From assembly GCF_000582535.1 (NCBI RefSeq), contig NZ_CP006932.1:240001-272000 (forward strand): a stretch of DNA of 32,000 bases, read 5' to 3'. Source of the DNA: Candidatus Saccharimonadota bacterium (GTDB lineage Bacteria > Bacillota_I > Bacilli_A > Mycoplasmatales > Hepatoplasmataceae). Both the position numbers and the translations under genes were made by a program. Of the stretch, positions 8,381-29,610 are shown piece by piece (position 1 is the first letter of the stretch; every line of letters starts with the position of its first letter). The notes below the pieces were generated by a model, which was given only the letters and a program-made list of their open reading frames with translations, had not been told where the DNA came from and did not search any database.

Positions 8381-8386
8381 ATTATA
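8381..8386 (-). promoter_or_regulatory. Putative -10 box (TATAAT) of SDR paralog 1
   Basis: TATAAT lies on the minus strand 23 nt upstream of the ATG. The same box at the same spacing, plus the GAAAGAGAGATTA SD block, recurs upstream of all four SDR paralogs. Confidence 0.4.
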
Positions 8387-8807
8387 TTATTTAATTTAAT
8401 AAAATTAGATTATCATATCAAAATTGTATATTTTAATCGATTATTATTTCAAGAAACAGCAATCATAGATTCAACTTTATTTAATTAATTTGTAATCATT
8501 TGATTTTTTTATTTATGGAATAATTTTTAATGAAAAAAATTATTAATTTTAATAAATGAAAATCTTTTATAGGAAATACTTCTATTTTTAATGAAGAGGA
8601 ATTAAAATATCAACATTATAAAAATAACAGAAAAATTATAATTAAATTTTTACATATTTTTTTGTGGTGAATGGAAAAATATAAATTATCAAAATTTACA
8701 AAATTATAAATTACTACAAGAATTAGAATATCATTTTACTTATTCTTTACAAAGTAAAAAGATAATTATAAATATAATGCGAAAGAAATTAGGTTTATTT
8801 AGTTTTA

Positions 8808-10148: not shown

Positions 10149-10170
10149 TTCTAATCTCTCGTTTTAAGTT

Positions 10171-10341: not shown

Positions 10342-11106
10342 TTAATCAATTCAAAAAATATCATAATATCCATCCGACAGTTCTAATTTATTATTTTTAA
10401 TTATTCCAACGATTTTATCACTTTTATATAATTTATAGGTTTCATCTGCAAGATTTTCAGAAGTTAAAATTGCTTTACTTTTTCAATTTTTATATTTTTC
10501 AATTTGTTCTTTTTTAAGTTTTGTTTTTAATAAGGCTTGATTACTAAATTCACTTTTAGTAACTCCTGGAGCTAGAACTTTTACTTTTATTTTTTTATTT
10601 AATTTTCTTAATTGTTTTGCTACACTTTCTGTTCAAGCAGAAACAAATACTTTTGATGCTGAGTAATTTATAGATCATGCAAAAATATTATAACCAGCCC
10701 CTGAAGACACATTTATTAATTGAACATCATTATCTAAATTATCTCTTATAAACATAATTGAAAGTGTAGTAAGAGTTTTAATATTTAAATCAAGCATTTT
10801 TTTGATTTTATCAAGATCTGAATCTCATGCTAAATTTAAATCACCAAATCCGGCATTATTTATAAATAATTCAATATCATATTTTTTTACATCATTATAA
10901 AATTTTTCTACTTCTTGTTCTTTTGATAGATCAACTGTAAAGACAACAACATCTATTTTATATCTATTTTCTAATTCTTTTTTAATTTCATTCAATAAAT
11001 TTGTTCTTCTTGCTGCAATTATAAGATTATGTCTTTTGCTCGCAAATTTTTCAGCAAGTCCTTTTCCTATTCCTGAACTCGCTCCTGTAATTAATGTATA
11101 TTTCAT
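10342..11106 (-). CDS. Short-chain dehydrogenase/reductase, paralog 3 (254 aa)
   Basis: The N-terminus is MKYTLITGASSGIGK, with NNAGFG downstream. The frame continues through TGA 10825-10827. The C-terminus reads ...YKLYKSDKIVGIIKNNKLELSDGYYDIFWID, ending at TAA 10344-10342. Confidence 0.9.
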
Positions 11107-11129
11107 TCTAATCTCTCTTTCTTAATGTA

Positions 11130-11135
11130 ATTATA
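11130..11135 (-). promoter_or_regulatory. Putative -10 box of SDR paralog 3
   Basis: Minus-strand TATAAT lies 24 nt upstream of ATG 11106, between the upstream hairpin and the conserved SD block. Confidence 0.4.
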
Positions 11136-11142
11136 ATATTTA

Positions 11143-11182
11143 AATTTAAAAGAGAAAGATTTAAATCCTTCTCTTTTAAATT
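11143..11182 (-). terminator. Hairpin terminator downstream of SDR paralog 4
   Basis: An inverted repeat pairs aatttaaaagagaa (11143-11156) with ttctcttttaaatt (11169-11182) around a 12-nt loop. It starts 16 nt after the stop at 11198, and a T-rich tail follows on the minus strand. Confidence 0.5.
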
Positions 11183-11197
11183 AATTATTTTGTTTAC

Positions 11198-11962
11198 TTA
11201 AACTCAAAAAATATTATAACTTCCATCTGAAAGTTCTAATTTATTATCATTATTTATAATTCCTAATATCTTATCACTTTCATATAATTTATAAGCCTTA
11301 TTTGCAAGTTCTTCTGCTGTTATTGATATTTTTTGTGCTCAATCCTTAAATTCTTCGATTTTTTCATCTTTAAGTTTTGTTTTTGCAAGAGCTCTATTAC
11401 CAAATTCACTTTCTGTTGCTCCTGGAGCTAAAACTTTTACTTTTATTTTTTTGTTTAATTTTTTTAATTGTTTTGCTACACCTTCTGTTCAAGAAGCAAC
11501 AAAGATTTTTGAAGCTGAATAACTTATTGCTCCTGAAAAAACACCATATCCTGCAACTGAAGATACATTTATTAATTGAACATCTTTATCTAAATTATCT
11601 CTTATAAACATAATTGAAAGTGTAGTAAGAGTTTTAATATTTAAATCAAGCATTTTTTTGATTTTATCAAGATCTGAATCTCAAGGTAAATTCATATCAC
11701 CAAATCCAGCATTATTTATAAATAATTCAATATCATATTTTTTTACATCATTATAAAATTTTTCTACTTCTTGCTCTTTTGATAGATCAACTGTAAAGAC
11801 AACAACATCTATTTTATATCTATTTTCTAAGTTTTTTTTAATTTCATTTAACAAATTTGTTCTTCTTGCTACAATTATAAGATTATGACCTTTGTTTGCA
11901 AATTTTTCAGCAAGAGATTTTCCTATTCCTGAACTTGCTCCTGTAATTAATGTATATTTCAT
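11198..11962 (-). CDS. Short-chain dehydrogenase/reductase, paralog 4 (254 aa)
   Basis: The N-terminus is MKYTLITGASSGIGK, with NNAGFG downstream. It is very close to paralog 3. The frame continues through TGA 11681-11683 to TAA 11200-11198. Confidence 0.9.
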
Positions 11963-11985
11963 TCTAATCTCTCTTTCTTGAAATA

Positions 11986-11991
11986 ATTATA
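11986..11991 (-). promoter_or_regulatory. Putative -10 box of SDR paralog 4
   Basis: Minus-strand TATAAT lies 24 nt upstream of ATG 11962. Confidence 0.4.
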
Positions 11992-12014
11992 ATTAAATTT
12001 AATAAAATTATTGT

Positions 12015-12222
12015 TTATGATATTATTATATCTTCTATTTTTGTAACTATATTTTTATCATCATAAATTTCAATTGTATATGTTCCAATAATTAAATCAG
12101 CAAAATTCAATCCAATATTATCACCTTCATTTAAATTAATTTGTTGTATCTCTCACATGATTAAGAATAGCAGTTTCTTTTCCGTTGAAAGCAGGAATAT
12201 TTACATCAAATGTAATAGATTT
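12015..12222 (-). pseudogene. Promoterless, start-less, frameshifted relic of one SprB/Ig-like repeat domain
   Basis: The minus strand reads SITFDVNIPAFNGKETAILNH, then after a frameshift INLNEGDNIGLNFADLIIGTYTIEIYDDKNIVTKIEDIIIS*. This is homologous to the 94-aa units of 24513..27332. A TAA lies directly upstream and there is no start codon. Confidence 0.6.
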
Positions 12223-14065
12223 TTATCCTTTGATATATCAATTTGCAATATCTATATTTTAAATAAATATGGATATATTTTTTTTATTATATTAATTTTG
12301 GATTTTATTAAATATTACAAATTGCTTTATTTTTTCTATTGATATATTTTTTAGTATTCTAGTAAATAATTAAAATAGATATTAAACGATCCTCATATCT
12401 AACATTGATTAATAAAATCACAAAATTTAAATAATTCTTATTATTTGTTTAGTCATAATTAATTACAATATTTAAAATATTAAATGCGAAATTTAAATTA
12501 CTAAATAACCTTTAGATAACCTTTTAAAATAAAATTTATAATATAATTTTTTTAATTGATGTAATAATAATTTCTGCACTTAACGCAGCATCAATTATAT
12601 TAATTGTTTTATCAACATTAAAAGAGAAATAGCAAGCCCCAATTCCAACAAAATCATATCTTGTAGTCCCATCATATACAATATCTTTTGCATACATTAA
12701 TTGAGTATTACCAATATCTGCATAAGTACAATTAATCAATAAGAAATCTGCGTTACTATAATCATCCATATTTATTATTGTACCGCTTACTTGTGCATTT
12801 AAATCTATTGGTGCAGGAATTCCATTTACTCCTCACATTGTTGCTAAAAAATCACTCTCTCTTGCTTTTGTTACTGTACCGTTCAAAGTATCTGTGAAAG
12901 TTAATTCTCCAGAATAAGATACATTACTTCCGTGTTGTTTTTGTAATCAAGTATTAGTTACAATTAAATCACTTATTTCTCTGATAGGATAACCATATTG
13001 TGGTTTTACTGCTGTACCAGCACTTGTGTTAAAGTATCATTTAGAAATTATTAAATCATAATTAGTATAGTCTTCGTTTAACACAAATTTATCACCATAA
13101 CCAAATGCCCCGTTTTCTAAAATTTTAGTAATAGTAATATTATCAATTGCTTTAATTCAATTTAAACCTTTAACTGAATTACTTACACTTTCTCTTGTTG
13201 TGTCAAAAGTATTATCACTTGTTCTTTTTATAGCAACATAACATTCATCTCCTTGTGGATCGTTAGGGTTAAATGAATTTAAACAACCAGTAGTTCATTC
13301 GTTTAAATTAAAATCTGATCCAACAATAAATAAGTTTTGATAACATTGAATATTGTTTTCTGGTATTAAATTTCCCTTTGTAATCATTAATATATGATTA
13401 AAATCTTCTCCATCATTAACTGGAATATCATTACTGTTTGGGGGAATTAAAGAACCATCATCAGGTGTCACAATATCAATTATTTCTTCATCTCCACCAC
13501 CATCTTCAGATGAATCATAATCATTAATTATAAATGATGTATTATCAATCAATTCAGTATCACAATAAACTTCTATATTATAATATCCGGGAGGTAAATC
13601 AGTAAATGTTAATCCTGTATTTATTCCCTCGGATAAAGTAATTGGTTCTGTTCCACTTGCTGGATTTAATACAGCAATTGATGTTCCATTACAATCTGAT
13701 AAATAAACATCAAAGGAAACTGTACCATTTCCATCTTCAGTAGTTGGATCAGTAGGAACAATATTATCAATTATTGCTGATGGGAATGGATCTATTGAAC
13801 AATCTTTACAAGTAGATAAAGAATCAAGACTTGCTTTAATATCACCAATAGCATTATTTATAATATCACCTAAGTTATTTACTGCTGTATTTAAACCATC
13901 AATTTGATCTTGCAAACCATCAGTTAATCCAAGAAGTGTATTATCTCGAACAACTGTATCATTAGTACTTTCTCCATATAATTTTTCATCTGCTTGTGTA
14001 AAATCTCCAAAAGCTTCAGTAGATGTATTTCCCAAAACTGTATAAGTTACATGATCAGTATCAAC
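12197..14065. repeat. Segmental duplication copy A (about 1.87 kb, ~99% identical to 18636..20502)
   Basis: The two copies are offset by a constant 6437 nt, with one 2-nt poly-T length difference near 12270. I found about ten substitutions by eye. Identity drops sharply outside both ends. Confidence 0.85.
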
Positions 14066-14566
14066 CATATTATTATTAATTAAATCATCAATCGCTTCTT
14101 TATTAGTTTCATTTACTTCTTTTTGTGTTTTTTCACCTTCGGAATTATAATTTATTGTATTTATAGATAATATATCAATATTTCCTCCATTGCAGCCATC
14201 AATCATAATTACAATTAAATCAAGGCAATTAATTTATTGATTTGATTTATTTCTTTTTGTGTTGAATCGCCTTATAATATAGAATCCATTATACTAAAAG
14301 AAGGAGTATTTATTTTCCCATTAAGATAATTAATTTTCTTATTCATATTAATAATTCAGAACTAATTTCAGTAATATTTATTTTATTTTTCTTATTGACT
14401 TCTTTCTGCGTTTTATCATTTTTTAAAGTAGAATTAATTGTATTAATTAATAATGTAAAGTTTTTATTGACATATTTTCATTTACTTCTTATTGAAATTC
14501 TCATATTTCTATTGTTGGATTTATAGTTACTATATGTGCAAGATTAACATATCCTACTTGACTTTT
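12536..14566 (-). pseudogene. Decayed, internally deleted fibre-family paralog P1: ruined 5' part, intact 556-codon 3' ORF (12536..14206) with no family promoter or SD; candidate silent cassette
   Basis: 14207..14566 holds recognisable but stop-riddled family sequence, e.g. LAHIVTINPTIEIWEFQ*EVNENMSIKTL against SAHVQTVNPVAEGGGFQQEVNENITQSINSI, and TINSTLKNDKTQKEVNKKNK. The ORF from ATG 14206 continues through TGA 13295-13297 to TAA 12536. It is nearly identical to the 3' half of 18973..22818. The conserved ~150-nt leader seen upstream of the other paralogs is absent. Confidence 0.6.
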
Positions 14567-14632
14567 ATATTTGATTAAGTTTTATTTTCCTCTTTAAAAC
14601 TTAATTTTATTTTATTAATCTATAAAAAATAT

Positions 14633-17600
14633 TTATAATTTTATTCCTCATAATTTCATAGTAAAACTAAAATTTTTGGTATAACTTCCATCAGGATTAA
14701 ATATAAAATAGCTTGAATCTGCTACAGAAGAAATATAATATCTTGTTATTCCATCTGCAATTATATTTTTAGCATAAATAAATAAACCACCTCAATAATT
14801 CTTTGATCTATCTGAAACAAATAATAATGAATAATCAGAAGTTATGAATTTAGTATTTGTTAATTCTTCAAAATTTTCTCAATTCATACCTCAAATCATA
14901 TTAAAAGCAAGTTTAGTATAACCATTATCTGCTTTAATATTAAGAGTAGTTCCACTAATTGTACATCATGATTCAAAAGAAGCATAAGCGAGAACAATTT
15001 CATTGTTATCAATATCTCCTGTTTTTACTGCAATATATTGTATATGTTCATCACTATCACCAAGATTTGCAGTTGATTTAGCAATTATAAAATCATAATT
15101 ATATAAATCTTCTTTTATTGATATACTATTTCCACTTTTAATACTTACTTCATTATCCAATAATTGTGTGATTGGTTGTTTAAGTCCCTTGATAAAATCT
15201 AAACCATCAATAACACCCCCAAGATTTCTTAATGTAAATGTATTATTTGATGTTACTTTTAATAATAAATTACTATCATCACTAGTAACATAAGTTAAAT
15301 AAATATTATATTCTGGACCATTTAATTCTAAATTAGTTCCAATCATCAATGAATTTCCTATTCCTTTTCCATCACTTAATGTTGTATTAGTAAATAATAA
15401 ATTATAGTCGTTTAAATTACCATTTGTTGTTCCGCCTTCTTTATCGGGTGTATCAAAATCTATTAAATCATCAAAACCATCATCTGTAATAATTGGTTCA
15501 GAAATTATAAATGATGTATCATCAATCAATTCAGTATCACAATAAACTTCTATATTATAATATCCGGGAGGTAAATTTGTAAACGTTAATCCTGTATTTA
15601 TTCCCTCGGATAAAGTAATTGGTTCTGTTCCACTTGCTGGATTTAATACAGCAGTTGATGTTCCATTACAATCTGATAAATCAACATCAAAGGAAACTGT
15701 ACCATTTCCATCTTCAGTAGTTGGATCAGTAGGAACAATATTATCAATTATTGCTGATGGGAATGGATCTATTGAACAATCTGTACAAGTAGATAAAGAA
15801 TCAAGACTTGCTTTAATATCACCAATAGCATTATTTATAATATCACCTAAGTTATTTACTGCTGTATTTAAACCATCAATTTGATCTTGCAGACCATCAG
15901 TTAATCCAAGAAGTGTATTATCTCGAACAACTGTATCATTAGTACTTTCTCCATATAATTTTTCATCTGCTTGTGTAAAATCTCCAAAAGCTTCAGTAGA
16001 TGTATTTCCCAAAACTGTATAAGTTACATGATCAGTATCAAGTACATCACTATTAATTAAATCATCAATTGCTTGCGTATTTGCATCAATTGCTTCTTTA
16101 TTAGCTTCATTTACTTCTTGTTGTGTTGTTCCACCTTCAGCAGTTGCATCAACTGTAGCAACATCTGAAGTATTTGGATCACTTAAATTATCAAGCTGAT
16201 CATTAATATCATCAATCGCTTCTTTATTAGCTTCATTTACTTCTTTTTGTGTAGATCCACCTTCAGTACTAGGACTATTAGTATTAATAACAGCGGTATC
16301 ACCTTCTACTGGAACACCATTATTAATAAGATCATCTACTTCATCATTTAAATTATCAATCGCTTCTTTATTAGCTTCATTTACTTCTTTTTGTGTAGAT
16401 CCACCTTCAGCAGCAGGATCTGCAGTGGGAACATCAGAAGTATCTCCATCAATTATATTATCTACTTCATTATTTAAATTATCAATCGCTATTTTATTAT
16501 TTTTATTTACAATTTCTTGTGTTGCTCCACCTTCAGCAGCAGAATTTGAAGTGGGAACATCAGAAGTATCTCCATTACGAATATCATCAACTTCATCATT
16601 TAAATTATCAATTGCTTCTTTATTAGCTTCATTTACTTCTTTTTGTGTAGAACCACCTTCAGTAGTAGGATTATTAGTATCAATAGTAGAAGTATCACCT
16701 GGTGTAACTCCATTATCAATAATATTTTCTATTTCTGTATTTAAAGTATCAACTTCATCATTTAAATTATCAATCGCTTCTTTATTATTTTTATTTACAA
16801 TTTCTTGTGTTGATCCACCTTCAGCACTAGAATCTTTAGTATCAATAGTAGAAGTATCATCTGATGGAACACCATTATTAATAAGATCATCTACTTCATC
16901 ATTTAAAATATTTATTTCTTTATTTAAAGTATCAAATTCATCATTTAAATTATCAATCGCTTCTTTATTATTTTTATTTACAATTTCTTGTGTTGATCCA
17001 CCTTCAGCACTAGAATCTTTAGTATCAATAGTAGAAGTATCATCTGATGGAACACCATTATTAATAAGATCATCTACTTCATCATTTAAAATATTTATTT
17101 CTTTATTTAAAGTATCAAATTCATCATTTAAATTATCAATCGCTTCTTTATTATTTTTATTTACAATTTCTTGTGTTGATCCACCTTCATTTGTGGAATC
17201 AGCAGTATTAATAGTTGAAGTTGTAATATCATCGCAATCGCAACCAGAAGAATCACAACCACATTCCATACAATCAATCTTTTCATTAATATCAGAAATT
17301 TCAGAATTAACTTTAATAATTTCAGAATCTAAAGTAATAATACTTTTTTTATTAGCTTCATTTACTTCTTTTTGATTTGGCCCACCTTCAAAAAAACTAT
17401 CAACAGTAGATACATTTTCTGTATTGGTTTTTAAATCATTATCATCAATCTTAGAACTAATATCATTAATTAAAGTATTTATATTATCAATGTCTTTTTT
17501 ATTAACTTGATTTATTTCTTTTTGATTTATTCCACCTTCTAAAGTAGTATCGACCGCTTTAATAGAATAAGTAGTATTAGCTTCTCCAAAAGATTCCATT

Positions 17601-18202
17601 TTATCATTAATATCAGAAATATCTGAATTTAGTGAATCAAAATTAACTTTATTTTTTACATTAATTTCTTGTTGTGTTGTTCCATTTTCTAAAGAAGAAT
17701 TAGTTGCAATAATTTTTGAAGTATTTATATCAAAATCTAAATTATCAATTTTATCATCAATTATAATAATTGAATCATTTAAATCATCTATGTTTTGTTT
17801 ATTTTTTTCATTTACTTGCTTTTGTGTTGTTCCACCTTCAGAAGTAGAATTAACTGTTTCGATAGAAGAAGTAATAGTTTGTATTAAAGTATTGCCATTA
17901 ACAATATCATTAAATCCATCATTTAAATTATCAATATTTTGTTTATTTTTTTCATTTACTTGTTGTTGTGTTGTTCCACCTTCAGAAGTAGAATTAATAG
18001 TATTAATAGATGATGTAATAGTTTTTACTTTAGTACCACCACTTACAATAGAATTAATACTTTGTGTAATATTTTCATTTACTTCTTGTTGAAATCCTCC
18101 ACCTTCGGTAACAGGATTTACTGTTTGTACATGTGCAGAATCAGTAATTGATGCTGTAACTTTTTTTTCCGCAAAATTACTTTTATTATATTTATTTTCC
18201 AT
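14633..18202 (-). CDS. Fibre-family protein P2 (1189 aa): acidic N-terminus without signal peptide, 14 EGG-TQ-EVN-NK-AID units, Cys cluster, coiled-coil segment, CxxC hinge, one SprB/Ig-like domain, unique C-terminal module
   Basis: Track ORF 14966..18202 continues through TGA 14966-14968 and four more TGA codons. I translated it codon by codon to TAA 14635-14633, ending ...FSFTMKLWGIKL*. The N-terminus is MENKYNKSNFAEKKVTASITDSAHVQTVNPVTEGGG. Confidence 0.85.
16801..17166. repeat. Intragenic tandem duplication, 2 x 183 bp (61-aa unit AEGGSTQEIVNKNNKEAIDNLNDEFDTLNKEINILNDEVDDLINNGVPSDDTSTIDTKDSS)
   Basis: The anchor tttcttgtgttgatccacc occurs at 16801, 16984 and 17167, a period of 183 nt. 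The two full copies look identical by eye. Confidence 0.85.
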
Positions 18203-18360
18203 AATTTAATTTACCCCATATATTATTTTATTTAAATTTAATAATTTTTTACAATAAAATAAAACATTTCTTCTTATTTTTAAATTAACTCTAAAATAGA
18301 TAATTATTTATCATATCTTGATATATAAATAATCTATTATCTTAATTATAATTATATTAA
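18203..18360 (-). promoter_or_regulatory. Conserved upstream leader and promoter block of P2 (-10 at 18351-18356; inverted repeat TATCA-N5-TGATA at 18309-18323)
   Basis: This block aligns with the regions upstream of P3 and P4. Shared elements are CATAATTTAATTTAcC, TAATTATTTATCA..TTGATAT, TTATCTTAATT and ATTATA(A/T)T followed by an A-run. Confidence 0.45.
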
Positions 18361-18424: not shown

Positions 18425-18661
18425 TTATTTATTTTTTAATAAAATTACTGGTTCTGATATTATGATATCTTCTCTTTTTGTGATTAAATTTTTATCATCA
18501 TAAATCTCAATTTTATATGGTCCAACCATTAGATTATCAAATACTAATTCAATATTATCCTCTTCATTTAAATCAATTGGTAATTTATTTCCTGCAGGAT
18601 TAAAAACAGCAGTTCCTTTTCCTTTGAAAGCAGAAATATTTACATCAAATGTAATAGATTT
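18425..18661 (-). pseudogene. Start-less relic of one SprB/Ig-like repeat domain (78 codons, open frame)
   Basis: The minus strand reads SITFDVNISAFKGKGTAVFNPAGNKLPIDLNEEDNIELVFDNLMVGPYKIEIYDDKNLITKREDIIISEPVILLKNK*. TAA 18664-18662 lies directly upstream and there is no start codon or SD. It is homologous to 12015..12222 and to the 282-bp units. Confidence 0.6.
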
Positions 18662-20502
18662 TTATCCTTTGATATATCAATTTGCAATATCTATATTTTA
18701 AATAAATATGGATATATTTTTTATTATATTAATTTTGGATTTTATTAAATATTACAAATTGCTTTATTTTTTCTATTGATATATTTTTTAGTATTCTAGT
18801 AAATAATTAAAATAGATATTAAATGATCCTCATATCTAACATTAATTAATAAAATCACAAAATTTAAATAATTCTTATTATTTGTTTAGTCATAATTAAT
18901 TACAATATTTAAAATATTAAATGCGAAATTTAAATTACTAAATAACCTTTAGATAACCTTTTAAAATAAAATTTATAATATAATTTTTTTAATTGATGTA
19001 ATAATAATTTCTGCACTTAACGCAGCATCAATTATATTAATTGTTTTATCAACATTAAAAGAGAAATAGCAAGCCCCAATTCCAACAAAATCATATCTTG
19101 TAGTCCCATCATATACAATATCTTTTGCATACATTAATTGAGTATTACCAATATCTGCATAAGTACAATTAATCAATAAGAAATCTGCGTTACTGTAATC
19201 ATCCATATTTATTATTGTACCGCTTACTTGTGCATTTAAATCTATTGGTGCAGGAATTCCATTTACTCCTCATATTGTTGCTAAAAAATCACTCGCTCTT
19301 GCTTTTGTTACTGTACCGTTCAAAGTATCTGTGAAAGTTAATTCTCCAGAATAAGATACATTACTTCCGTGTTGTTTTTGTAATCAAGTATTAGTTACAA
19401 TTAAATCACTTATTTCTCTGATAGGATAACCATATTGTGGTTTTACTGCTGTACCAGCACTTGTGTTAAAGTATCATTTAGAAATTATTAAATCATAATT
19501 AGTATAGTCTTCGTTTAACACAAATTTATCACCATAACCAAATGCCCCGTTTTCTAAAATTTTAGTAATAGTAATATTATCAATTGCTTTAATTCAATTT
19601 AAACCTTTAACTGAATTACTTACACTTTCTCTTGTTGTGTCAAAAGTATTATCACTTGTTCTTTTTATAGCAACATAACATTCATCTCCTTGTGGATCGT
19701 TAGGGTTAAATGAATTTAAACAACCAGTAGTTCATTCGTTTAAATTAAAATCTGATCCAACAATAAATAAGTTTTGATAACATTGAATATTGTTTTCTGG
19801 TATTAAATTTCCCTTTGTAATCATTAATATATGATTAAAATCTTCTCCATCATTAACTGGAATATCATTACTGTTTGGGGGAATTAAAGAACCATCATCA
19901 GGTGTCACAATATCAATTATTTCTTCATCTCCACCACCATCTTCAGATGAATCATAATCATTAATTATAAATGATGTATTATCAATCAATTCAGTATCAC
20001 AATAAACTTCTATATTATAATATCCGGGAGGTAAATCAGTAAATGTTAATCCTGTATTTATTCCCTCGGATAAAGTAATTGGTTCTGTTCCACTTGCTGG
20101 ATTTAATACAGCAGTTGATGTTCCATTACAATCTGATAAATCAACATCAAAGGAAACTGTACCATTTCCATCTTCAGTAGTTGGATCAGTAGGAACAATA
20201 TTATCAATTATTGCTGATGGGAATGGATCTATTGAACAATCTGTACAAGTAGATAAAGAATCAAGACTTGCTTTAATATCACCAATAGCATTATTTATAA
20301 TATCACCTAAGTTATTTACTGCTGTATTTAAACCATCAATTTGATCTTGCAGACCATCAGTTAATCCAAGAAGTGTATTATCTCGAACAACTGTATCATT
20401 AGTACTTTCTCCATATAATTTTTCATCTGCTTGTGTAAAATCTCCAAAAGCTTCAGTAGATGTATTTCCCAAAACTGTATAAGTTACATGATCAGTATCA
20501 AG
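18636..20502. repeat. Segmental duplication copy B (partner of 12197..14065)
   Basis: See copy A. It covers the relic's 5' edge, about 310 nt of non-coding DNA and the 3' ~1.5 kb of P3. Confidence 0.85.
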
Positions 20503-22818
20503 TACATCACTATTAATTAAATCATCAATTGCTTGCGTATTTGCATCAATTGCTTCTTTATTAGCTTCATTTACTTCTTGTTGTGTTGTTCCACCTTCAG
20601 CAGTTGCATCAACTGTAGCAACATCTGAAGTATTTGGATCACTTAAATTATCAAGCTGATCATTAATATCATCAATCGCTTCTTTATTAGCTTCATTTAC
20701 TTCTTTTTGTGTAGATCCACCTTCAGTACTAGGACTATTAGTATTAATAACAGCGGTATCACCTTCTACTGGAACACCATTATTAATAAGATCATCTACT
20801 TCATCATTTAAATTATCAATCGCTTCTTTATTAGCTTCATTTACTTCTTTTTGTGTAGATCCACCTTCAGTACTAGGACTATTAGTATTAATAACAGCGG
20901 TATCACCTTCTACTGGAACACCATTATTAATAAGATCATCTACTTCATCATTTAAATTATCAATTGCTTCTTTATTAGCTTCATTTACTTCTTTTTGTGT
21001 AGATCCACCTTCAGTAGCAGGATCTGCAGTGGGAACATCAGAAGTATCTCCATTACGAATATCATCAACTTCATCATTTAAATTATCAATCGCTATTTTA
21101 TTATTTTTATTTACAATTTCTTGTGTTGCTCCACCTTCAGCAGCAGAATTTGAAGTGGGAACATCAGAAGTATCTCCATTATGAATATCATCAATTTCAT
21201 CATTTAAATTATCAATTGCTTCTTTATTAGCTTCATTTACTTCTTTTTGTGTAGATCCACCTTCAGTAGTAGGATTATTAGTATCAATAGTAGAAGTATC
21301 ACCTGGTGTAACTCCATTATCAATAATATTTTCTATTTCTGTATTTAAAGTATCAACTTCATCATTTAAATTATCAATTGCTTCTTTATTATTTTTATTT
21401 ACAATTTCTTGTGTTGATCCACCTTCAGCAGTAGGACTATTAGTATCAATAGTAGAAGTATCACCTAGTGTAACTCCATTATCAATAATATTTTCTATTT
21501 CTGTATTTAAAGTATCAACTTCATCATTTAAATTATCAATCGCTTCTTTATTATTTTTATTTACAATTTCTTGTGTTGATCCACCTTCAGCACTAGAATC
21601 TTTAGTATCAATAGTAGAAGTATCACCTGATGGAACACCATTATTAATAAGATCATCTACTTCATCATTTAAAATATTTATTTCTGTATTTAAAGTATCA
21701 AATTCATCATTTAAAGTATCAATCGCTTCTTTATTATTTTTATTTACAATTTCTTGTGTTGATCCACCTTCATTTGTAGAATCAGCAGTATTAATAGTTG
21801 CAGTTGTAATATCATCGCAATCGCAACCAGAAGAGTCACAACCACATTCCATACAATCAATCTTTTCATTAATATCAGAAATTTCAGAATTAACTTTAAT
21901 AATTTCTGAATCTAAGGTAATAATACTTTTTTTATTAGCTTCATTTACTTCTTTTTGATTTGGCCCACCTTCAAAAAAACTATCAACAGTAGATACATTT
22001 TCTGTATTGGTTTTTAAATCATTATCATCAATCTTAGAACTAATATCATTAATTAAAGTATTTATATTATCGATATCTTTTTTATTAACTTGATTTATTT
22101 CTTTTTGATTTATTCCACCTTCTAAAGTAGTATCGACCGCTTTAATAGAATAAGTAGTATTAGCTTCACCAAAAGATTCCATTTTATCATTAATATCAGA
22201 AATATCTGAATTTAGTGAATCAAAATTAACTTTATTTTTTACATTAATTTCTTGTTGTGTTGATCCATTCTCTAAAGAAGAATTATTTGCACTAACTTTT
22301 GAAGTATTTATATCAAAATCTAAATTATCAATTTTATCATCAATTATAATAATTGAATCATTTAAATCATCTATGTTTTGTTTATTTTTTTCATTTACTT
22401 GCTTTTGTGTTGTTCCGCCTTCAGAAGTAGAATTAACTGTTTCAATAGAAGAAGTAATAGTTTGTATTAAAGTATTACCATTAATAATATCACTAAATTC
22501 ATCATTTAAATTATCAATGTTTTGTTTATTTTTTTCATTTACTTGTTGTTGTGTTGTTCCACCTTCAGAAGTAGAATTGATAGTATTAATAGATGATGTA
22601 ATAGTTTTTATTTTAGTACTACCACTTACAATAGAATTAATACTTTGTGTAATATTTTCATTTACTTCTTGTTGAAATCCTCCACCTTCAGCAACAGGAT
22701 TTACTGTTTGTACATGAGCAGAATCAGTAATTGATGCTGTAACTTTTTCTTCTTGTTCTACAAAATCACTATTATCAGATTCTTTATCTTGAAAATTTAA
22801 TTCATTTTCCTTTATCAT
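18973..22818 (-). CDS. Fibre-family protein P3 (1281 aa): same layout as P2 with 15 EGG units and a different C-terminal module
   Basis: Track ORFs 19732..22818 and 18973..19206 are in frame (528 nt between codon tops). I translated the intervening stretch with TGA=Trp and found it open (WTTGCLNSFNPNDPQGDECYVAIKR...TMWGVNGIPAPIDLNAQVSGTIINMDDYSNADF...). The N-terminus is MIKENELNFQDKESDNSDFVEQEEKVTASITDSAHV. Confidence 0.85.
20701..20988. repeat. Intragenic tandem duplication, 2 x 144 bp (48-aa unit TEGGSTQKEVNEANKEAIDNLNDEVDDLINNGVPVEGDTAVINTNSPS)
   Basis: The anchor ttctttttgtgtagatccacc occurs at 20701 and 20845. P2 carries this unit only once. Confidence 0.8.
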
Positions 22819-22970
22819 AATTTAATTTACCCTATATTATTTATTTACATTTTTTTAAAAACAAAAAAAGCACTTCTGCTATTTCTAATTTAATTCTAAA
22901 TATAGGTAATTATTTATCAAATTTTGATATTCTAATAACCCATTATCTTAATTTTAATTATAATAAAAAA
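22819..22970 (-). promoter_or_regulatory. Conserved upstream leader and promoter block of P3 (-10 at 22957-22962; palindrome TATCAAATTTTGATA at 22915-22929)
   Basis: This block aligns with the P2 and P4 upstream regions. The TATAAT lies about 139 nt upstream of the ATG. Confidence 0.45.
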
Positions 22971-23633: not shown

Positions 23634-26600
23634 TTAAATTATAATTCCTTTCACTCCTAATAGTTCAAGATGTCCTAAACCGCCACCACTAGTTCAAGTT
23701 AAAACATTTCCAGTAATTGTAAAGTGTTCTTGCTGGTAATTAGAATAAGAATGATTTGTTATACCATCAGCAACAATATCACTAACTTTAATAACTCAAT
23801 CACCAACAGCAAAATTGCTTCCTTCAATTTTAAATAATAATAAATCATAAGAAGTGTAATCATTTAAAGTGAAAGTATCAGAAGTTTGAGATATCACAAG
23901 ATTATCTATTGATGTAAAGTTAAAACCATAAATCATTGTTATGTAACTACCTTCACCTATTCCTGTTGAAACTTCTTGGTTTGAAAATCTTCAACCATTA
24001 AGAGCAGTATCAGCAGCATTTTTGGCAACATAAATATAGTTTTGCTCTGGATCTGTTGTTTGTTCTCATAAAGTATAACTAAAATTATTTCTTGTATTAT
24101 CTCATCATTTTTGAACAATCATATTAAATTGTGTAATGTCTTCTAATCAAGTAAAATTATCATTATTTTCATAAATACCTTCTGTAATTAAAGGTGTTAG
24201 CCCAACATTAATTCCTTTTAAATAATATATTCCAGTAAAATCACCTATAATATCTAAATTAAAATTAGTAGGATCAGTAAATATTAATTTTTGAATCTCA
24301 TTATTACTTGTAATTCCGCTTTGATTTGAATCATTAATATCTATTTCTTTACCAATAAACAAACCATTTCCCACATAATTAGGATGTTGATTTTTACTCA
24401 AAATAATATCATAATTTAAATAACTATCTAATATTTCTCCACTTGTTTTACTATTAGCATCATCATCCTCAGGTGTTAATGGAATAAAATCATTACCACC
24501 AATATTAGGTTCAGAAACAACTATATCTGCCTCTGAACTAATTAATTCCTCTCCATCATAAATTTCAATTACATATGTTCCAGCAATTAAATTATCAAAG
24601 ATCAATCCTGTATTTGCTCCATCAACTAAGCTAATTGGACTTGTTCCAGTAGCAGGATTTAAAACTGCAGTTGCTAAATCAACAAAGTTAGCAATTGTAA
24701 CATCAAATCCAATTGAACCATCACTACCACCATTTATAGTTACATCAGTTGGAATAACATTTGAAACTGTTGCCTCTGGATCTGGGAGAGGTTCATTAAT
24801 CACTATATCTGCCTCTGAACTAATTAAAGTTTCTCCATCATAAATTTCAATTACATATGTTCCAGCAATTAAATTATCAAAACTCAAATCAGCATTTACT
24901 CCATCAACTAAGTTAATTGGACTTGTTCCAGTAGCAGGATTTAAAATAGCAGTTGCTAAATCAACAAAGTTAGCAATTGTAACATCAAATCCAATTGAAC
25001 CATCACTACCACCATTTATAGTTACATCAGTTGGAATAACATTTGAAACTGTTGCCTCTGGATCTGGGAGAGGTTCATTAATCACTATATCTGCCTCTGA
25101 ACTAATTAAAGTTTCTCCATCATAAATTTCAATTGTATATGTTCCAGCAATTAAATTATCAAAACTTAAATCAGCATTTGCTCCATCAACTAAGCTAATT
25201 GGACTTGTTCCAGTAGCAGGATTTAAAACTGCAGTTGCTAAATCAACAAAGTTAGCAATTGTAACATCAAATCCAATTGAACCATCACTACCACCATTTA
25301 TAGTTACATCAGTTGGAATAACATTTGAAACTGTTGCCTCTGGATCTGGGAGAGGTTCAGAAACAACAATATCTGCCTCTGAACTAATTAAAGTTTCTCC
25401 ATCATAAATTTCAATTGTATATGTTCCAGCAATTAAATTATCAAAACTTAAATCAGCATTTGCTCCATCAACTAAGCTAATTGGACTTGTTCCAGTAGCA
25501 GGATTTAAAATAGCAGTTGCTAAATCAACAAAGTTAGCAATTGTAACATCAAATCCAATTGAACCATCACTACCACCATTTATAGTTACATCAGTTGGAA
25601 TAACATTTGAAACTGTTGCCTCTGGATCTGGGAGAGGTTCAGAAACAACAATATCTGCCTCTGAACTAATTAAAGTTTCTCCATCATAAATTTCAATTGT
25701 ATATGTTCCAGCAATTAAATTATCAAAACTTAAATCAGCATTTGCTCCATCAACTAAGCTAATTGGACTTGTTCCAGTAGCAGGATTTAAAACTGCAGTT
25801 GCTAAATCAACAAAGTTAGCAATTGTAACATCAAATCCAATTGAACCATCACTACCACCATTTACAGTTACATCAGTTGGAATAACATTTGAAACTGTTG
25901 CCTCTGGATCTGGAAGAGGTTCATTAATCACTATATCTGCCTCTGAACTAATTAAAGTTTCTCCATCATAAATTTCAATTGTATATGTTCCAGCAATTAA
26001 ATTATCAAAACTTAAATCAGCATTTGCTCCATCAACTAAGCTAATTGGACTTGTTCCAGTAGCAGGATTTAAAATAGCAGTTGCTAAATCAACAAAGTTA
26101 GCAATTGTAACATCAAATCCAATTGAACCATCACTACCACCATTTACAGTTACATCAGTTGGAATAACATTTGAAACTGTTGCCTCTGGATCTGGAAGAG
26201 GTTCATTAATCACTATATCTGCCTCTGAACTAATTAAAGTTTCTCCATCATAAATTTCAATTGTATATGTTCCAGCAATTAAATTATCAAAACTTAAATC
26301 AGCATTTGCTCCATCAACTAAGCTAATTGGACTTGTTCCAGTAGCAGGATTTAAAATAGCAGTTGCTAAATCAACAAAGTTAGCAATTGTAACATCAAAT
26401 CCAATTGAACCATCACTACCACCATTTACAGTTACATCAATTGGAACTACATTTGAAACTGTTGCCTCTGGATCTGGGAGAGGTTCATTAATCACTATAT
26501 CTGCCTCTGAACTAATTAAAGTTTCTCCATCATAAATTTCAATTACATATGTTCCAGCAATTAAATTATCAAAACTCAAATCAGCATTTACTCCATCAAC

Positions 26601-29441
26601 TAAGTTAATTGGACTTGTTCCAGTAGCAGGATTTAAAATAGCAGTTGCTAAATCAACAAAGTTAGCAATTGTAACATCAAATCCAATTGAACCATCACTA
26701 CCACCATTTATAGTTACATCAGTTGGAATAACATTTGAAACTGTTGCCTCTGGATCTGGGAGAGGTTCATTAATCACTATATCTGCCTCTGAACTAATTA
26801 AAGTTTCTCCATCATAAATTTCAATTACATATGTTCCAGCAATTAAATTATCAAAACTCAAATCAGCATTTACTCCATCAACTAAGTTAATTGGACTTGT
26901 TCCAGCAGCAGGATTTAAAATAGCAGTTGCTGAATCAACAAAGTTAGCAATTGTAACATCAAATCCAATTGAACCATCACTACCACCATTTACAGTTACA
27001 TCAATTGGAATAACATTTGAAACTGTTGCCTCTGGATCTGGGAGAGGTTCAGAAACAACAATATCTGCCTCTGAACTAATTAAAGTTTCTCCATCATAAA
27101 TTTCAATTGTATATGTTCCAGCAATTAAATTATCAAAACTCAAACCAGCATTTTCTCCATCAACTAAAGTAATTTCATCTATTATTGCTGTAGGATTTAA
27201 TCCTATTACATCTGAATTTGAATTTAAAACTGCTTTTGCTGTATTCATAAAGTTAGCAATTGTAACATCAAATACAATTGAACCATCATTACCACCATTT
27301 ACAGTTACATCAGTTGTAATAACATTTGAAAATATTACTTCTTGATCTGGAGTTAAAGGGCATCCAGTACAAATAGATATTGAATTAAGGCTTAATAAAA
27401 TATTAGAAACAATTTTATTTAAATCATCTATTGCTTGGGTATTAGTACCAATTGCTTGTGTATTAGCATTAATCGCAATTTTATTAGCTTCATTTACTTC
27501 TTGTTGTGTTGCCCCACCTTCAGTATTAGAATCAACTGTAGCAATATCTGAAGTAACTGGATTATTTAAATCATCAATTGCTTGCGTATTTGCATCAATT
27601 GCTTGCGTATTTGCATCAATTGCAATTTTATTAGCTCATTTACTTCTTGTATGTGTTGCTCCCCCTTCAGTATTAGAATCAACTGTAGTAATATCTGAAG
27701 TAACTGGATCACTTAAATCATCAATTGCTTGCGTATTTGCATCAATTGCTTGCGTATTTGCATCAATTGCAATTTTATTAGTTTCATTTACTTCTTGTTG
27801 TGTTGCTCCCCCTTCAGTATTAGAATCAACTGTAGTAATATCTGAAGTAACTGGATCACTTAAATCATCAATTGCTTGCGTATTTGCATCAATTGCTTGC
27901 GTATTTGCATCAATTGCAATTTTATTAGTTTCATTTACTTCTTGTTGTGTTGCTCCCCCTTCAGTATTAGAATCAACTGTAGTAATATCTGAAGTAACTG
28001 GATCACTTAAATTATCTATTGCTTGGGTATTAGCATCAATTGCTTGAGTATTAGCATCAATTGCTTTTTTATTAGCTTCATTTACTTCTTTTTGTGTAGA
28101 ACCACCTTCAGTAATTGAATTAGTAGTAGTAATAGTTGAAGTATTTCCTCCTGGCACACCATTATTTATAATATCACTAATTTCATCACTTAAATTATCA
28201 ATTGCTACTTTATTACTTTTATTTACAATTTCTTGTGTTGTTCCACCTTCAGTCGTAGAATTTACAGTATTAATAGTTGAAGTTGTAATATCATCGCAAT
28301 CGCAACCAGAAGAATCACAACCACATTCCATACAATCAATCTTTTCATTAATATCAGAAATTTCAGAATTAACTTTAATAATTTCAGAATCTAAAGTAAT
28401 AATACTTTTTTTATTAGCTTCATTTACTTCTTTTTGATTTGGCCCACCTTCAAAAAAACTATCAACAGTAGATACATTTCCTGTATTGGTTTTTAAATCA
28501 TTATCATCAATCTTAGAACTAATGTCACTAATTAAGGTATTTATACTATCAATATCTTTTTTATTAACTTGATTTATTTCTTTTTGATTTATTCCGCCTT
28601 CTAAAGTAGTATCGACCGCTTTAATAGAATAAGTGGTATTAGCTTCTCCAAAAGATTCCATTTTATCATTAATATCAGAAATATCTGAATTTAGTGAATC
28701 AAAATTAACTTTATTTTTTATATTAATATCTTTTTGCGTTGATCCACCTTCTAAAGAAGAACTAGTTGCATTAACTTTTGAAGTATTTATATCAAAATCT
28801 AAATTATCAATTTTATCATCAATTACAACAATTGAATTATTTAAATTATCAATGTTTTGTTTATTTTTTTCATTTACTTGCTTTTGTGTTGTTCCGCCTT
28901 CAGAAGTAGAATTAATTGTTTCAATAGAAGAAGTAACAGTTTGTATTAAAGTATTACCATTAACAATATCATTAAATTCATCATTTAAATTATCAATGTT
29001 TTGTTTATTTTTTTCATTTACTTGCTTTTGTGTTGTTCCGCCTTCAGAAGTAGAATTAATTGTTTCAATAGAAGAAGTAACAGTTTGTATTAAAGTATTA
29101 CCATTAACAATATTATTAAATTCATCATTTAAATTATCAATCGCTTCTTTATTTTTTTGATTTACTTGTTGTTGTGTTGTTCCACCTTCAGAAGCAGAGT
29201 TAATAGTATTAATATATGATGTAATAGTTTTTATTTCAGTATTACCACTTAAAATAGAATTAATACTTTGTGTAATATTTTCGTTTACTTCTTGTTGAAA
29301 TCCCCCACCTTCAGCAACAGGATTTACTGTTTGTACATGAGCAGAGTCAGTAATTGATGCTGTAATTTTTTCTTTTTCTTCTGAAAAATTACTTTTATCA
29401 GATTCATTTTCTTGAAAATTTAATTCATTTCCCTTTTCCAT
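23634..29441 (-). CDS. Fibre-family protein P4 (1935 aa): 13 EGG units, Cys cluster, CxxC hinge, 10 tandem SprB/Ig-like domains, third type of C-terminal module
   Basis: Track ORFs 27636..29441 and 24147..27248 are in the same frame (2193 nt apart). I translated 27635..27249 and 24146..23634 codon by codon and both are open with TGA=Trp, ending at TAA 23636-23634 (...LTWTSGGGLGHLELLGVKGIII*). The N-terminus is MEKGNELNFQENESDKSNFSEEKEKITASITDSAHV. Confidence 0.8.
24513..27332. repeat. Coding tandem array, 10 x 282 bp (94-aa SprB/Ig-like domain units); nine near-identical copies and one diverged
   Basis: The anchor gcctctgaac recurs at 24811, 25093 and onward with an exact 282-nt period. The unit is EPLPDPEATVSNVIPTDVT(V/I)NGGSDGSIGFDVTIANFVDLATA(I/V)LNPATGTSPI(N/S)LVDG(V/A)NADLSFDNLIAGTY(V/T)IEIYDGETLISSEADIV(IN/VS). 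Confidence 0.9.
27480..28075. repeat. Coding tandem array, about 4 x 147 bp (49-aa unit with an internal 21-bp/7-aa ANTQAID doublet)
   Basis: The anchor cccccttcag occurs at 27661, 27808 and 27955, with a variant at 27514. The unit is KIAIDANTQAIDANTQAIDDLSDPVTSDITTVDSNTEGGATQQEVNETN. Confidence 0.85.
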
Positions 29442-29610
29442 AATTTAATTTATCCTATATATTATTTTTATTTAAATTTGATTAAAATTTTTTTATATTA
29501 AAACAAAGCATTTCTGCTATTTCTAATTTAACTCTAAATATGGGTAATTATTTATCAAATTTTGATATTTTAAAAACCCCTTATCTTAATTTTCATTATA
29601 ATAAAAAATA
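29442..29610 (-). promoter_or_regulatory. Conserved upstream leader and promoter block of P4 (-10 at 29595-29600; palindrome TATCAAATTTTGATA at 29553-29567)
   Basis: This block aligns with the P2 and P3 upstream regions. The TATAAT lies about 154 nt upstream of the ATG. Confidence 0.45.

What the first reader, a model, noticed from the sequence alone, without database searches (positions are those of the whole stretch)
12197..14065. Silent 3' cassette: decayed paralog P1 keeps a ~99% identical copy of the P3 tip despite a ruined 5' end
12197..14065 matches 18636..20502 at a constant 6437-nt offset. I found about ten substitutions and one 2-nt poly-T difference by eye. The aa changes are only D/Y, T/I and T/K. 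The match covers the Ig-like domain, the whole C-terminal module and ~310 nt of 3' non-coding DNA. In contrast, the P1 5' portion (14207..14566) is stop-riddled and internally deleted and lacks the family promoter and leader. Old decay sitting next to near-identity argues for recent gene conversion rather than one recent duplication. Mycoplasmas vary surface antigens this way, using promoterless donor cassettes that recombine into expression sites.
Basis: partly seen in the sequence, partly recalled or inferred. Interest (0 to 1): 0.75.

Follow-up and report, generated by a model that had tools for sequence, protein, structure and literature searches.

The report
Gene-converted pseudogene in phage-fibre-like array
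A broken, promoterless gene copy in a woodlouse-gut mollicute has had its last 1.9 kb freshly overwritten from a working neighbour by gene conversion; this looks like routine homogenisation in a tandem gene family, not a proven antigen-switching cassette, but the family shares swappable 'tip' modules with an undescribed phage-like element.

Summary
Window 12196-14064 (P1) equals 18635-20501 (P3) except for 9 substitutions and one 2-nt T-run indel (99.4%). The homologous flanks are only 76-82% identical (Fisher p=3e-38). The P1 5' remnant is 58.5% identical to P3 and full of stops.

Two sharp boundaries, plus identity at synonymous and non-coding sites, mean recent gene conversion. This is neither a simple duplication nor an effect of selection.

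The 'silent donor cassette for antigenic variation' reading is not supported:
- P1 differs from P3 by only 5 residues, so it stores no diversity.
- All 5 replacements are derived in P1, so P1 is decaying and P3 is conserved.
- P2 and P3 share their own 99.6% tract, so homogenisation runs across the whole array.
- P1-P4 have no signal peptide, lipobox or transmembrane segment.

The window is code-4 'Candidatus Hepatoplasma crinochetorum'. The tandem giant-ORF cluster is already published (PMC10928387) as putative adhesins.

New here: the P3-type and P4-type tips, the Ig-like repeats and the EGG-repeat shaft also occur in structural modules of ~22-24-kb code-4 phage-like contigs. Those contigs carry Sak or RecT, an exonuclease and an FtsK-like ATPase. 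Their tip is added by a -1 frameshift and is swapped between variants of the same element. Tip exchange is therefore real at the family level. P1 is most likely a by-product of it.

The parts
12196..14064 (-). P1 copy of the homogenised tract: neck module (13778-14062), Ig-like domain (13523-13777), C-terminal tip (12539-13522), stop codon (12536-12538) and 340 nt of 3' non-coding DNA (12196-12535)
   Evidence: 9 substitutions plus one 2-nt indel versus P3; 99.41% identity; module coordinates
18635..20501 (-). P3 copy of the same tract, inside the intact P3 gene and its 3' flank
12536..14206 (-). Residual P1 ORF (556 codons under table 4): one EGG repeat, neck, Ig-like domain and tip. It has no Shine-Dalgarno-like G-run upstream, unlike P2-P4
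   Evidence: The same 556-aa product was called in an ENA metagenome (P0001)
14207..14632 (-). Decayed 5' remnant of P1. Family N-terminal motifs and about 3 EGG units are still recognisable, but there are at least 8 stops per frame and a large internal deletion (about 4 units against 14-15 in P2/P3). It abuts the P2 stop codon, so no upstream block is left
   Evidence: 58.5% identity to P3 codons 1-154
11998..12195 (-). Diverged 3' flank of P1 (81.6% identical to 18435-18634). It encodes a frameshifted relic of a P4-like Ig-like domain (relic spans 12018-12219). The tract boundary lies 24 nt inside the relic
18428..18658 (-). Relic Ig-like domain downstream of P3 (77 codons, no start codon, about 50% aa identity to P4 Ig repeats). 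It is the counterpart of the P1 relic
14633..18205 (-). P2 (1189 aa): same N-terminus, EGG repeats, neck and Ig-like domain as P3, but an unrelated-looking (28% aa) tip. Homology to P1/P3 stops exactly at the Ig/tip junction (15503)
18973..22821 (-). P3 (1281 aa): intact paralog and probable source of the P1 tract
23634..29444 (-). P4 (1935 aa): EGG repeats, ten 282-nt Ig-like repeats and a third tip type
   Evidence: coordinates match the public annotation 263634:269441
15503..16410 (-). Second recent homogenised tract, P2 versus P3 (= 19963-20870): 908 nt, 4 mismatches (99.56%), set in ~97% sequence
   Evidence: three-way comparison
22893..22920 (-). Promoter-like TTGATA-N16-TAGAAT inside the conserved upstream block of P3. 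Equivalents: P4 29531-29558; P2 18288-18314 with a mutated -35 (ATGATA) and a 15-nt spacer. P1 has none
   Evidence: consensus match only, function not shown

Best explanation
P1 is a 5'-truncated, promoterless relic of a tandem family of fibre-like modular proteins in 'Ca. Hepatoplasma crinochetorum'. Each full member has an N-terminal domain, a shaft of 14-15 EGG repeats, a neck, one or more Ig-like domains and a ~300-aa C-terminal tip.

Shown: an old duplication produced two copies of the unit 'neck + Ig + tip + downstream Ig relic'. The P1 copy then lost its 5' end. Much later, a 1.87-kb stretch running from the shaft/neck junction to 340 nt past the stop codon was homogenised between P1 and P3 by non-reciprocal homologous recombination (gene conversion).

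Inferred: the direction was P3 to P1. P1 has since drifted neutrally, and the event is one instance of ongoing concerted evolution across the array rather than a dedicated switching system.

Shown at family level: tips are exchangeable cassettes. P2 and P3 differ only by their tips. The same P3-type and P4-type tips sit at the end of a frameshift-extended structural protein of a ~23-kb phage-like element, where they are swapped at the last Ig-like repeat. The conserved neck and Ig sequences provide the homology for these exchanges.
For: - Two-sided boundaries. The tract is 99.41% identical, against 81.6% and 75.9% in the homologous flanks (p=3e-38).
- Divergence is equal at coding (0.46%) and non-coding (0.59%) sites, so the identity is not due to selection.
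- The 5' remnant is 58.5% identical to P3 and riddled with stops, and it lacks the upstream block.
- Both copies carry a diverged Ig relic downstream, so the duplicated unit is old.
- Polarity. In the neck/Ig block all 4 differences are private to P1 (P3 = P2). In the tip, the two replacements are derived in P1 relative to the L002 homolog. Six of the 7 coding P1 alleles are A/T where P3 has G/C.
- pN/pS is 0.68, not significant.
- An independent P2/P3 tract is 99.56% identical.
- Tip modularity. P2/P3 homology ends at 15503/19963. L002 and L006 are 92-94% identical on both sides of a swapped tip, P3-type versus P4-type. The junction lies at the conserved GTYTI(Q/E)V motif.
- The tips are distant homologs of one another.
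- The tip family is restricted to about 6 proteins among 1.84 billion representatives.
Against: - The direction of conversion rests on parsimony and on 7 sites (6 of 7 derived in P1, binomial p=0.125). A P1-to-P3 event followed by a P3-to-P2 event is not excluded.
- No population or multi-strain data for this locus could be obtained. The window's own genome appears masked in the collections.
- P1 retains an open 556-codon frame. No terminator-like site separates it from P2, so read-through expression, and hence some function, cannot be excluded.
- RecA or other recombination genes of this organism were not examined, because they lie outside the window.
Confidence: 0.62

Rival explanations
1. 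P1 is a maintained, silent, promoterless donor cassette. It recombines into the P3 (or P2/P4) expression site to vary a surface antigen, as in Mycoplasma synoviae vlhA pseudogenes or M. genitalium MgPar.
For: - P1 is promoterless, 5'-truncated and tandem to promoter-bearing paralogs. This resembles the vlhA layout, in which pseudogene sequence is recruited to one promoter (PMC2825196).
- A recent conversion event did occur.
- Tips are exchanged in this family.
- The P1 frame is still open for 556 codons.
Against: - There is only one cassette and it is 99.4% identical to P3, a 5-aa difference. Real donors are 78-94% identical and numerous (PMC2169797).
- All replacements are derived in P1, consistent with neutral drift.
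- P1-P4 have no signal peptide, lipobox or TM segment, so surface exposure is unproven.
- The open frame is expected anyway after only 0.5% divergence.
- The mosaic contig L001 is explained by short-read assembly.
- Woodlice lack the antibody-based adaptive immunity that drives classical antigenic variation (own knowledge).
Confidence: 0.13
2. A single recent segmental duplication copied the 3' part of P3 next to an unrelated older pseudogene fragment. No conversion between pre-existing homologs occurred.
For: The tract is one continuous block at an almost constant offset. Tandem arrays do expand by unequal exchange.
Against: - Homology continues beyond both ends at 76-82% identity.
- The continuing homology includes a shared downstream Ig relic in the same position in both copies.
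- It also includes an in-register EGG unit upstream.
- A fresh insertion would have non-homologous flanks, and unequal crossover would give one junction, not two.
Confidence: 0.1
3. The near-identity is exaggerated by assembly or polishing. Reads from P3 were mapped onto P1, or the reverse, and homogenised a more divergent copy.
For: - The source is probably a metagenome-assembled genome (PMC10928387).
- The independent short-read contig L001 shows that assemblers cannot phase these copies.
Against: - Nine substitutions and an indel survive.
- The boundaries are sharp and coincide with a module junction at the 5' end.
- L001 contains both P1-specific and P3-specific alleles and both kinds of flank, with no other differences. 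So both copies exist with these sequences in a second assembly.
Confidence: 0.05

Closest known systems
Concerted evolution by gene conversion between tandem paralogs, including conversion of a pseudogene by its functional neighbour
   Same: A tract of near-identity bounded on both sides by diverged homologous sequence. Identity at synonymous and non-coding sites. Several independent tracts in one array.
   Different: Nothing essential. This is an ordinary instance in a new organism with a very reduced genome.
Mycoplasma silent-cassette antigenic variation (M. synoviae vlhA pseudogene array, PMC2825196; M. genitalium MgPar/mgpB-mgpC, PMC2169797)
   Same: A promoterless, 5'-truncated copy near promoter-bearing genes. 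Homologous recombination moves 3' sequence between copies. The organism is a mollicute.
   Different: - There is one cassette rather than 9 to more than 60.
- It is 99.4% identical to the target rather than 78-94%.
- There are three promoter-bearing genes rather than one expression site.
- The products lack any export or anchor signal.
- No variants were observed.
Modular exchange of receptor-binding tips among phage tail fibres, and between phages and chromosomal (defective-prophage) fibre genes, promoted by Rad52-like annealases (De Paepe et al. 2014, PMC3945230)
   Same: - A conserved N-terminal part with interchangeable C-terminal tips, joined at conserved sequence.
- The same tips occur in chromosome and mobile element at 76-85% nt identity.
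- The element encodes Sak or RecT plus an exonuclease.
   Different: - No recognisable tail-fibre domain, capsid, portal or terminase by Pfam, PHROGs or PDB.
- The chromosomal array is not inside a prophage.
- Binding function is untested.
Ig-like domains appended to phage structural proteins by programmed frameshifting (Fraser et al. 2006; own knowledge, not retrieved here)
   Same: On L002, L006 and L005 the Ig-repeat-plus-tip part is in the -1 frame after a canonical slippery heptamer that interrupts an Ig-like domain (A_AAA_AAG or G_GGT_TTT).
   Different: This concerns the related elements, not the window. In the window the fibres are free-standing genes with their own starts.
Published 'large repetitive ORFs in tandem clusters' of Hepatoplasmataceae (PMC10928387, Fig. 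5)
   Same: This is the same gene cluster. That paper reports tandem arrays of Ig-like folds for the Ca. H. crinochetorum ORF HCTKY_2320, most likely P4 by architecture, and proposes an adhesin role.
   Different: In the sections read and the term search, the paper mentions none of the truncated P1 copy, the conversion tracts, the tip modularity, the lack of export signals, or any link to a mobile element.

Membership tests
Gene conversion / concerted evolution between paralogs | High-identity tract flanked on both sides by homologous but clearly more diverged sequence | tested here: met
   99.41% inside the tract versus 81.6% and 75.9% outside; Fisher p=3e-38; 0 of 2000 permutations
Gene conversion / concerted evolution between paralogs | Identity extends equally to synonymous and non-coding sites, so it is not explained by purifying selection | tested here: met
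   0.46% coding versus 0.59% non-coding divergence; only 2 synonymous differences in 1524 nt
Mycoplasma-type silent-cassette antigenic variation (vlhA, MgPar) | Promoterless partial copies alongside a promoter-bearing expression site | tested here: met
   P1 lacks the upstream block shared by P2-P4. However, there are three promoter-bearing genes, not one
Mycoplasma-type silent-cassette antigenic variation (vlhA, MgPar) | Donor cassettes carry sequence diversity relative to the expressed gene | tested here: not met
   P1 differs from P3 by 5 residues in 508, versus 78-94% identity for MgPar (PMC2169797)
Mycoplasma-type silent-cassette antigenic variation (vlhA, MgPar) | The product is a surface-exposed lipoprotein, adhesin or membrane protein | tested here: not met
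   No hydrophobic segment in P1-P4: the maximum 19-residue Kyte-Doolittle mean is <=1.48 versus 4.26 for the control. The N-termini are acidic and polar
Mycoplasma-type silent-cassette antigenic variation (vlhA, MgPar) | Chimeric expression-site variants exist within populations or strains | not testable with these tools
   Only assembled contigs are available. The L001 mosaic is uninformative
Phage tail-fibre / receptor-binding-protein-like modular proteins | Homologs encoded in the structural gene module of a phage genome | tested here: inconclusive
   Homologs lie after runs of large co-oriented genes on 22-24-kb code-4 contigs that carry Sak or RecT, an exonuclease and an FtsK-like ATPase. 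No capsid, portal, terminase or tail gene could be recognised
Phage tail-fibre / receptor-binding-protein-like modular proteins | Conserved proximal part with interchangeable distal tips | tested here: met
   P2 versus P3; L002 versus L006/L005; three tip types 19-28% identical
Phage tail-fibre / receptor-binding-protein-like modular proteins | Recognised tail-fibre sequence domains or fold | tested here: not met
   No Pfam, PHROGs, NCBIfam or PDB match. AlphaFold2 models were unusable (pLDDT 38 and 29), so the fold remains unknown

The most novel reading that the evidence does not exclude
The P1-P4 array is a chromosomal depot of phage-type fibre genes that shares one pool of tip cassettes with a family of ~23-kb Hepatoplasma phages. 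Tips move in both directions by annealase-assisted recombination at the conserved neck and Ig sequences. Promoterless copies such as P1 would serve as stored cassettes for the host genes or for infecting phages. The host might use phage-type fibres as adhesins or as receptor-masking decoys, or the phage might draw host-range variants from its host's chromosome.
Probability: 0.2. Interest if true: 0.8.

Novelty: new member of a known kind. Interest (0 to 1): 0.5.

Why it matters
On its own terms the finding is a clean textbook example of gene conversion rescuing the 3' end of a pseudogene. It should not be reported as an antigenic-variation system.

Following it up does change how the published 'giant adhesin' cluster of Hepatoplasmataceae should be read:
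- The proteins have no export signal.
- They are built like fibres with exchangeable tips.
- They share tips, Ig repeats and shaft repeats with mobile, phage-like elements that have not been described for this symbiont lineage. The Av genome paper reported no detectable phage (PMC3942034).

If confirmed, this would give the first handle on phages of isopod-gut mollicutes. It would also provide a tractable case of tip-cassette traffic between a minimal bacterial genome and its mobile elements.

Tried and rejected
- Table-11 ORF calling splits every gene. It was replaced by table 4.
- The tip search in genome contigs found nothing, and IMG/VR and JGI metagenome scans found no relatives. The window's own genome seems masked or absent. 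A search with the family N-terminus returned nothing.
- Pfam, PHROGs, NCBIfam and PDB sequence searches of P3, the tips and the element's large proteins gave no significant hits. tblastn against GenBank phages gave no match.
- Two AlphaFold2 jobs failed: the tip with 5 sequences (pLDDT 38) and the N-domain of the frameshift-extended element protein with 2 sequences (pLDDT 29). No fold search was run because the models are meaningless.
- L001 first looked like an in vivo P1/P3 chimera. It was rejected because it has no private SNPs and alternates alleles in the way a k=141 assembly would.
- The promoter and terminator scan is uninformative in 20-30% GC DNA: 180 promoter-like sites found against 158 expected.
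- No tRNA gene in the window could mark an integration site.
- Accession numbers of the source runs and 'Hepatoplasma phage' are not in the searchable literature.
Full report
ORGANISM AND READING FRAME. The window is 18-33% G+C. Its long genes are open only under translation table 4. TGA occurs 5-14 times per large gene and TGG 0-1 times, and TGA sits at the conserved tryptophan of the YMWG motifs in the RCC1-like neighbours. A database hit named 'Y_Y_Y domain protein 263634:269441 Reverse [Candidatus Hepatoplasma crinochetorum]' matches the P4 coordinates plus 240,000. The orthologous region of strain Ps is 85-89% identical. The window is therefore from a 'Ca. H. crinochetorum' chromosome, a mollicute from the midgut glands of woodlice.

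GENE MAP. Four tandem minus-strand paralogs lie between four short-chain-dehydrogenase (SDR) paralogs and RCC1-like membrane proteins:
- P1: 12536-14233
- P2: 14633-18205
- P3: 18973-22821
- P4: 23634-29444

THE OBSERVATION. An exact alignment shows that 12196-14064 and 18635-20501 differ by 9 substitutions and one 2-nt indel in a T run, which is 99.41% identity over 1869 columns. Homology continues on both sides but drops abruptly, to 81.6% in 11998-12195 and 75.9% in 14065-14122. This heterogeneity is far beyond chance (Fisher p=3.4e-38; 0 of 2000 permutations).

The tract covers these modules:
- neck, 13778-14062
- the single Ig-like domain, 13523-13777
- the ~330-aa tip, 12539-13522
- 340 nt of non-coding DNA

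Its 5' boundary falls exactly at the shaft/neck junction. Its 3' boundary lies 24 nt inside a relic Ig-like domain that sits downstream of both P1 (12018-12219, frameshifted) and P3 (18428-18658).

Upstream of the P1 ORF, 14212-14622 aligns to the first 154 codons of P3 at only 58.5% identity, with 98 gap columns and at least 8 stops in every frame. P1 keeps one intact EGG unit plus about three decayed ones, against 14-15 in P2/P3. It has no counterpart of the ~200-nt upstream block, ending in GGGGTAAATTAAATTATG, that P2, P3 and P4 share. Three details need fixing: there are five amino-acid differences in the tract (K/T, Y/D, I/T, E/A, M/I), not three; the non-coding part is 340 nt; and the homology extends beyond the stated ends.

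WHAT PRODUCED IT. Divergence is the same at coding (0.46%) and non-coding (0.59%) positions, so purifying selection does not explain the identity. Two junctions with homologous, older flanks exclude both a fresh insertion and a single unequal crossover. Both copies carry the same diverged relic downstream, so the duplicated unit is old. The simplest history has three steps: an old duplication, then decay of the P1 5' end, then recent gene conversion of the core.

The event is not unique to P1. P2 and P3 share a separate 908-nt tract with 4 mismatches (15503-16410 = 19963-20870, 99.56%), set in ~97% sequence. Concerted evolution is therefore running across the array.

DIRECTION AND STATE OF P1. 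In the neck/Ig block, where P2 serves as an outgroup, all four P1/P3 differences are private to P1. In the tip, with the 76%-identical L002 homolog as outgroup, both replacements are derived in P1 and one synonymous site is ambiguous. So all five replacements arose on the P1 side. Six of the seven coding P1 alleles are A/T where P3 has G/C, as expected for new mutations in an AT-biased genome. pN/pS is 0.68 and cannot be distinguished from 1 (p=0.65).

P3 is continuous with P2-like sequence upstream. A P3-to-P1 event therefore needs fewer steps than the reverse. These are small numbers (6 of 7, p=0.125), so the direction is an inference and not a result. The open 556-codon frame of P1 needs no selective explanation after 0.5% divergence.

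WHY NOT A MYCOPLASMA-STYLE DONOR CASSETTE.
- In M. genitalium, nine dispersed truncated MgPar copies are 78-94% identical to the expression site, and that difference is what generates variation (PMC2169797).
- Here there is one cassette, virtually identical to one of three promoter-bearing genes.
- P1-P4 have no hydrophobic stretch. The maximum 19-residue Kyte-Doolittle mean is 1.48, against 4.26 for the neighbouring RCC1 membrane anchor. Their N-termini are acidic, so they are not lipoproteins or anchored antigens.
- The one apparent chimera, ENA contig L001, joins the P1 5' flank to the P3 3' flank. It has no private SNP and alternates P1|P3|P1|P3 alleles, which is what a k=141 assembler does with two near-identical repeats.
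- No terminator-like site separates P2 from P1, so 'silent' is also unproven.

WHAT THE FAMILY IS. P3, its tip and the other tips match nothing in Pfam, PHROGs, NCBIfam or the PDB. A profile of the tips searched against 1.84 billion representative proteins finds only about six proteins. Their genomic contexts are informative.

L002/L003 and L009. L002/L003 (Logan, 23.8-kb contig) and L009 (22.3 kb) are code-4, 25-27% G+C contigs. They are syntenic, with 69-87% amino-acid identity across all large genes. Their gene order is as follows:
- a run of large co-oriented genes;
- the tip-bearing ORF;
- many small ORFs, including a Sak-like annealase (L002: PHROG 659, 2e-16) or RecT in its place (L009), an adjacent exonuclease (1.6e-7) and an FtsK/SpoIIIE-like ATPase (1e-13).

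The tip-bearing ORF starts in the middle of an Ig-like domain. The first half of that domain ends the preceding 520-aa ORF at AAT AAA AAA AAG TAG. A -1 shift on the canonical heptamer A_AAA_AAG joins the two ORFs. L006 has the same site, and L005 has G_GGT_TTT at the equivalent place.

L006. L006 is 92-94% identical to L002 upstream of the tip and again from about 6-9 nt past the stop codon. Between these points it carries a P4-type tip (85% nt identity to window 23631-24770), whereas L002 carries a P3-type tip (76% to window 12527-13487). The junction is at the conserved GTYTI(Q/E)V motif of the last Ig repeat.

L008. L008 encodes a 713-aa protein with EGG repeats, an Ig-like domain and a P4-type tip. 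It lies directly after a 27%-identical homolog of an L002 structural-size protein.

Strain Ps. Strain Ps has, besides the orthologous array (L007), a solitary 729-aa member next to AAA_15/AAA_21 and helicase genes (L004).

Taken together, every module of the chromosomal P proteins also occurs in mobile, phage-like elements, and tip swapping happens there as well. I call the elements 'phage-like' rather than phages for three reasons. No capsid, portal, terminase or tail protein could be recognised by sequence. Both structure predictions failed (pLDDT 38 and 29). No paper in the library describes a Hepatoplasma phage. Exchange between phages and chromosomal fibre genes via Rad52-like annealases is a known process (PMC3945230). 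It would fit the 76-85% identities seen here.

MECHANISM, WITH STATUS.
- Shown: a 1.87-kb conversion tract between P1 and P3; a second tract between P2 and P3; decay and promoter loss of P1; modular tips in the array and on the elements.
- Inferred: the direction was P3 to P1; P1 is non-functional and drifting; the conserved neck and Ig sequences are the recombination substrates; the elements infect Hepatoplasma.
- Unknown: where the P proteins go without an export signal, and what the tips bind.

VERDICT. The gene-conversion inference is supported. The antigenic-variation cassette interpretation is not supported. The feature is a new member of a known kind, within a gene cluster that is already published. 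The link to phage-like elements with frameshift-appended, swappable tips is the part worth following up.

Noticed in passing
L002 9930-10010; L006 750-830; L005 5570-5620: On the phage-like contigs the Ig-repeat-plus-tip ORF is in the -1 frame after a canonical slippery heptamer (A_AAA_AAG in L002 and L006, G_GGT_TTT in L005) that interrupts an Ig-like domain. This looks like a programmed -1 frameshift that appends the fibre to an upstream 389-520-aa protein.
   Followed up: partly
L002 (21.8 kb of a 23.8-kb contig), L009 (20.2 kb of 22.3 kb), L005, L006, L008: An undescribed family of code-4, 23-27% G+C phage-like elements in Logan assemblies. L002 and L009 are syntenic, with Sak replaced by RecT. 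They carry an exonuclease and an FtsK-like ATPase, and almost all other genes are orphans. No Hepatoplasma phage is reported in the searchable literature.
   Followed up: partly
window 18428-18658 and 12018-12219: Relic Ig-like domains lie about 320 nt downstream of the P3 and P1 stop codons. They are closest to P4-type repeats (~50% aa), and the P1 copy is frameshifted. They suggest an older 3' end displaced when the present neck-Ig-tip unit was installed.
   Followed up: partly
window 15503-16410 vs 19963-20870: P2 and P3 share a 908-nt tract with only 4 mismatches, all within 82 nt of the Ig/tip junction. This is a second recent conversion event, independent of the P1/P3 one.
   Followed up: yes
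window 27611-27671: One EGG repeat of P4 reads HTRSKWA where its sister units read QQEVNET. A +1 insertion is followed 20 nt later by a -1 deletion, giving a compensated frameshift that reads through a TGA codon. This is either real or a sequencing error.
   Followed up: partly
window 18288-18314 vs 22893-22920 and 29531-29558: The promoter-like element in the conserved upstream block is TTGATA-N16-TAGAAT/TAGAGT for P3 and P4, but ATGATA-N15-TAGAGT for P2. P2 may therefore be expressed differently. T-run lengths just upstream also differ (7, 7, 6).
   Followed up: no
window 1-1843 vs 3865-5707: Two adjacent RCC1-like/Ig-like membrane protein genes share 1.84 kb at 95.1% identity. This is another recent duplication or conversion in the same neighbourhood. 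Three further RCC1-like genes flank the P array.
   Followed up: partly
window 7597-8409, 9387-10163, 10342-11121, 11198-11986: Four tandem short-chain dehydrogenase paralogs. The last two are 91.5% identical over 505 nt (11501-12002 vs 10645-11149). This is unusual redundancy for a ~0.6-Mb genome.
   Followed up: no
L001 (ENA ERZ27262795, 4.6 kb): A metagenome contig joins the P2 3' end and the P1 remnant to the region downstream of P3, through the shared tract. It has no private SNPs and alternates P1/P3 alleles, so it is most likely an assembly chimera of the same strain.
   Followed up: yes
L004 10001-12190 (strain Ps, CWGI01000001.1 357635-359824): A solitary 729-aa family member (5 EGG units, 2 Ig-like domains, P4-type tip) lies outside the main array. 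It sits next to AAA_15/AAA_21 ATPase and large helicase genes that look like a defence island.
   Followed up: no
window 24507-27344: P4 contains ten 282-nt Ig-like repeats that are 91-95% identical to one another. This internal homogenisation parallels that between the paralogs.
   Followed up: no
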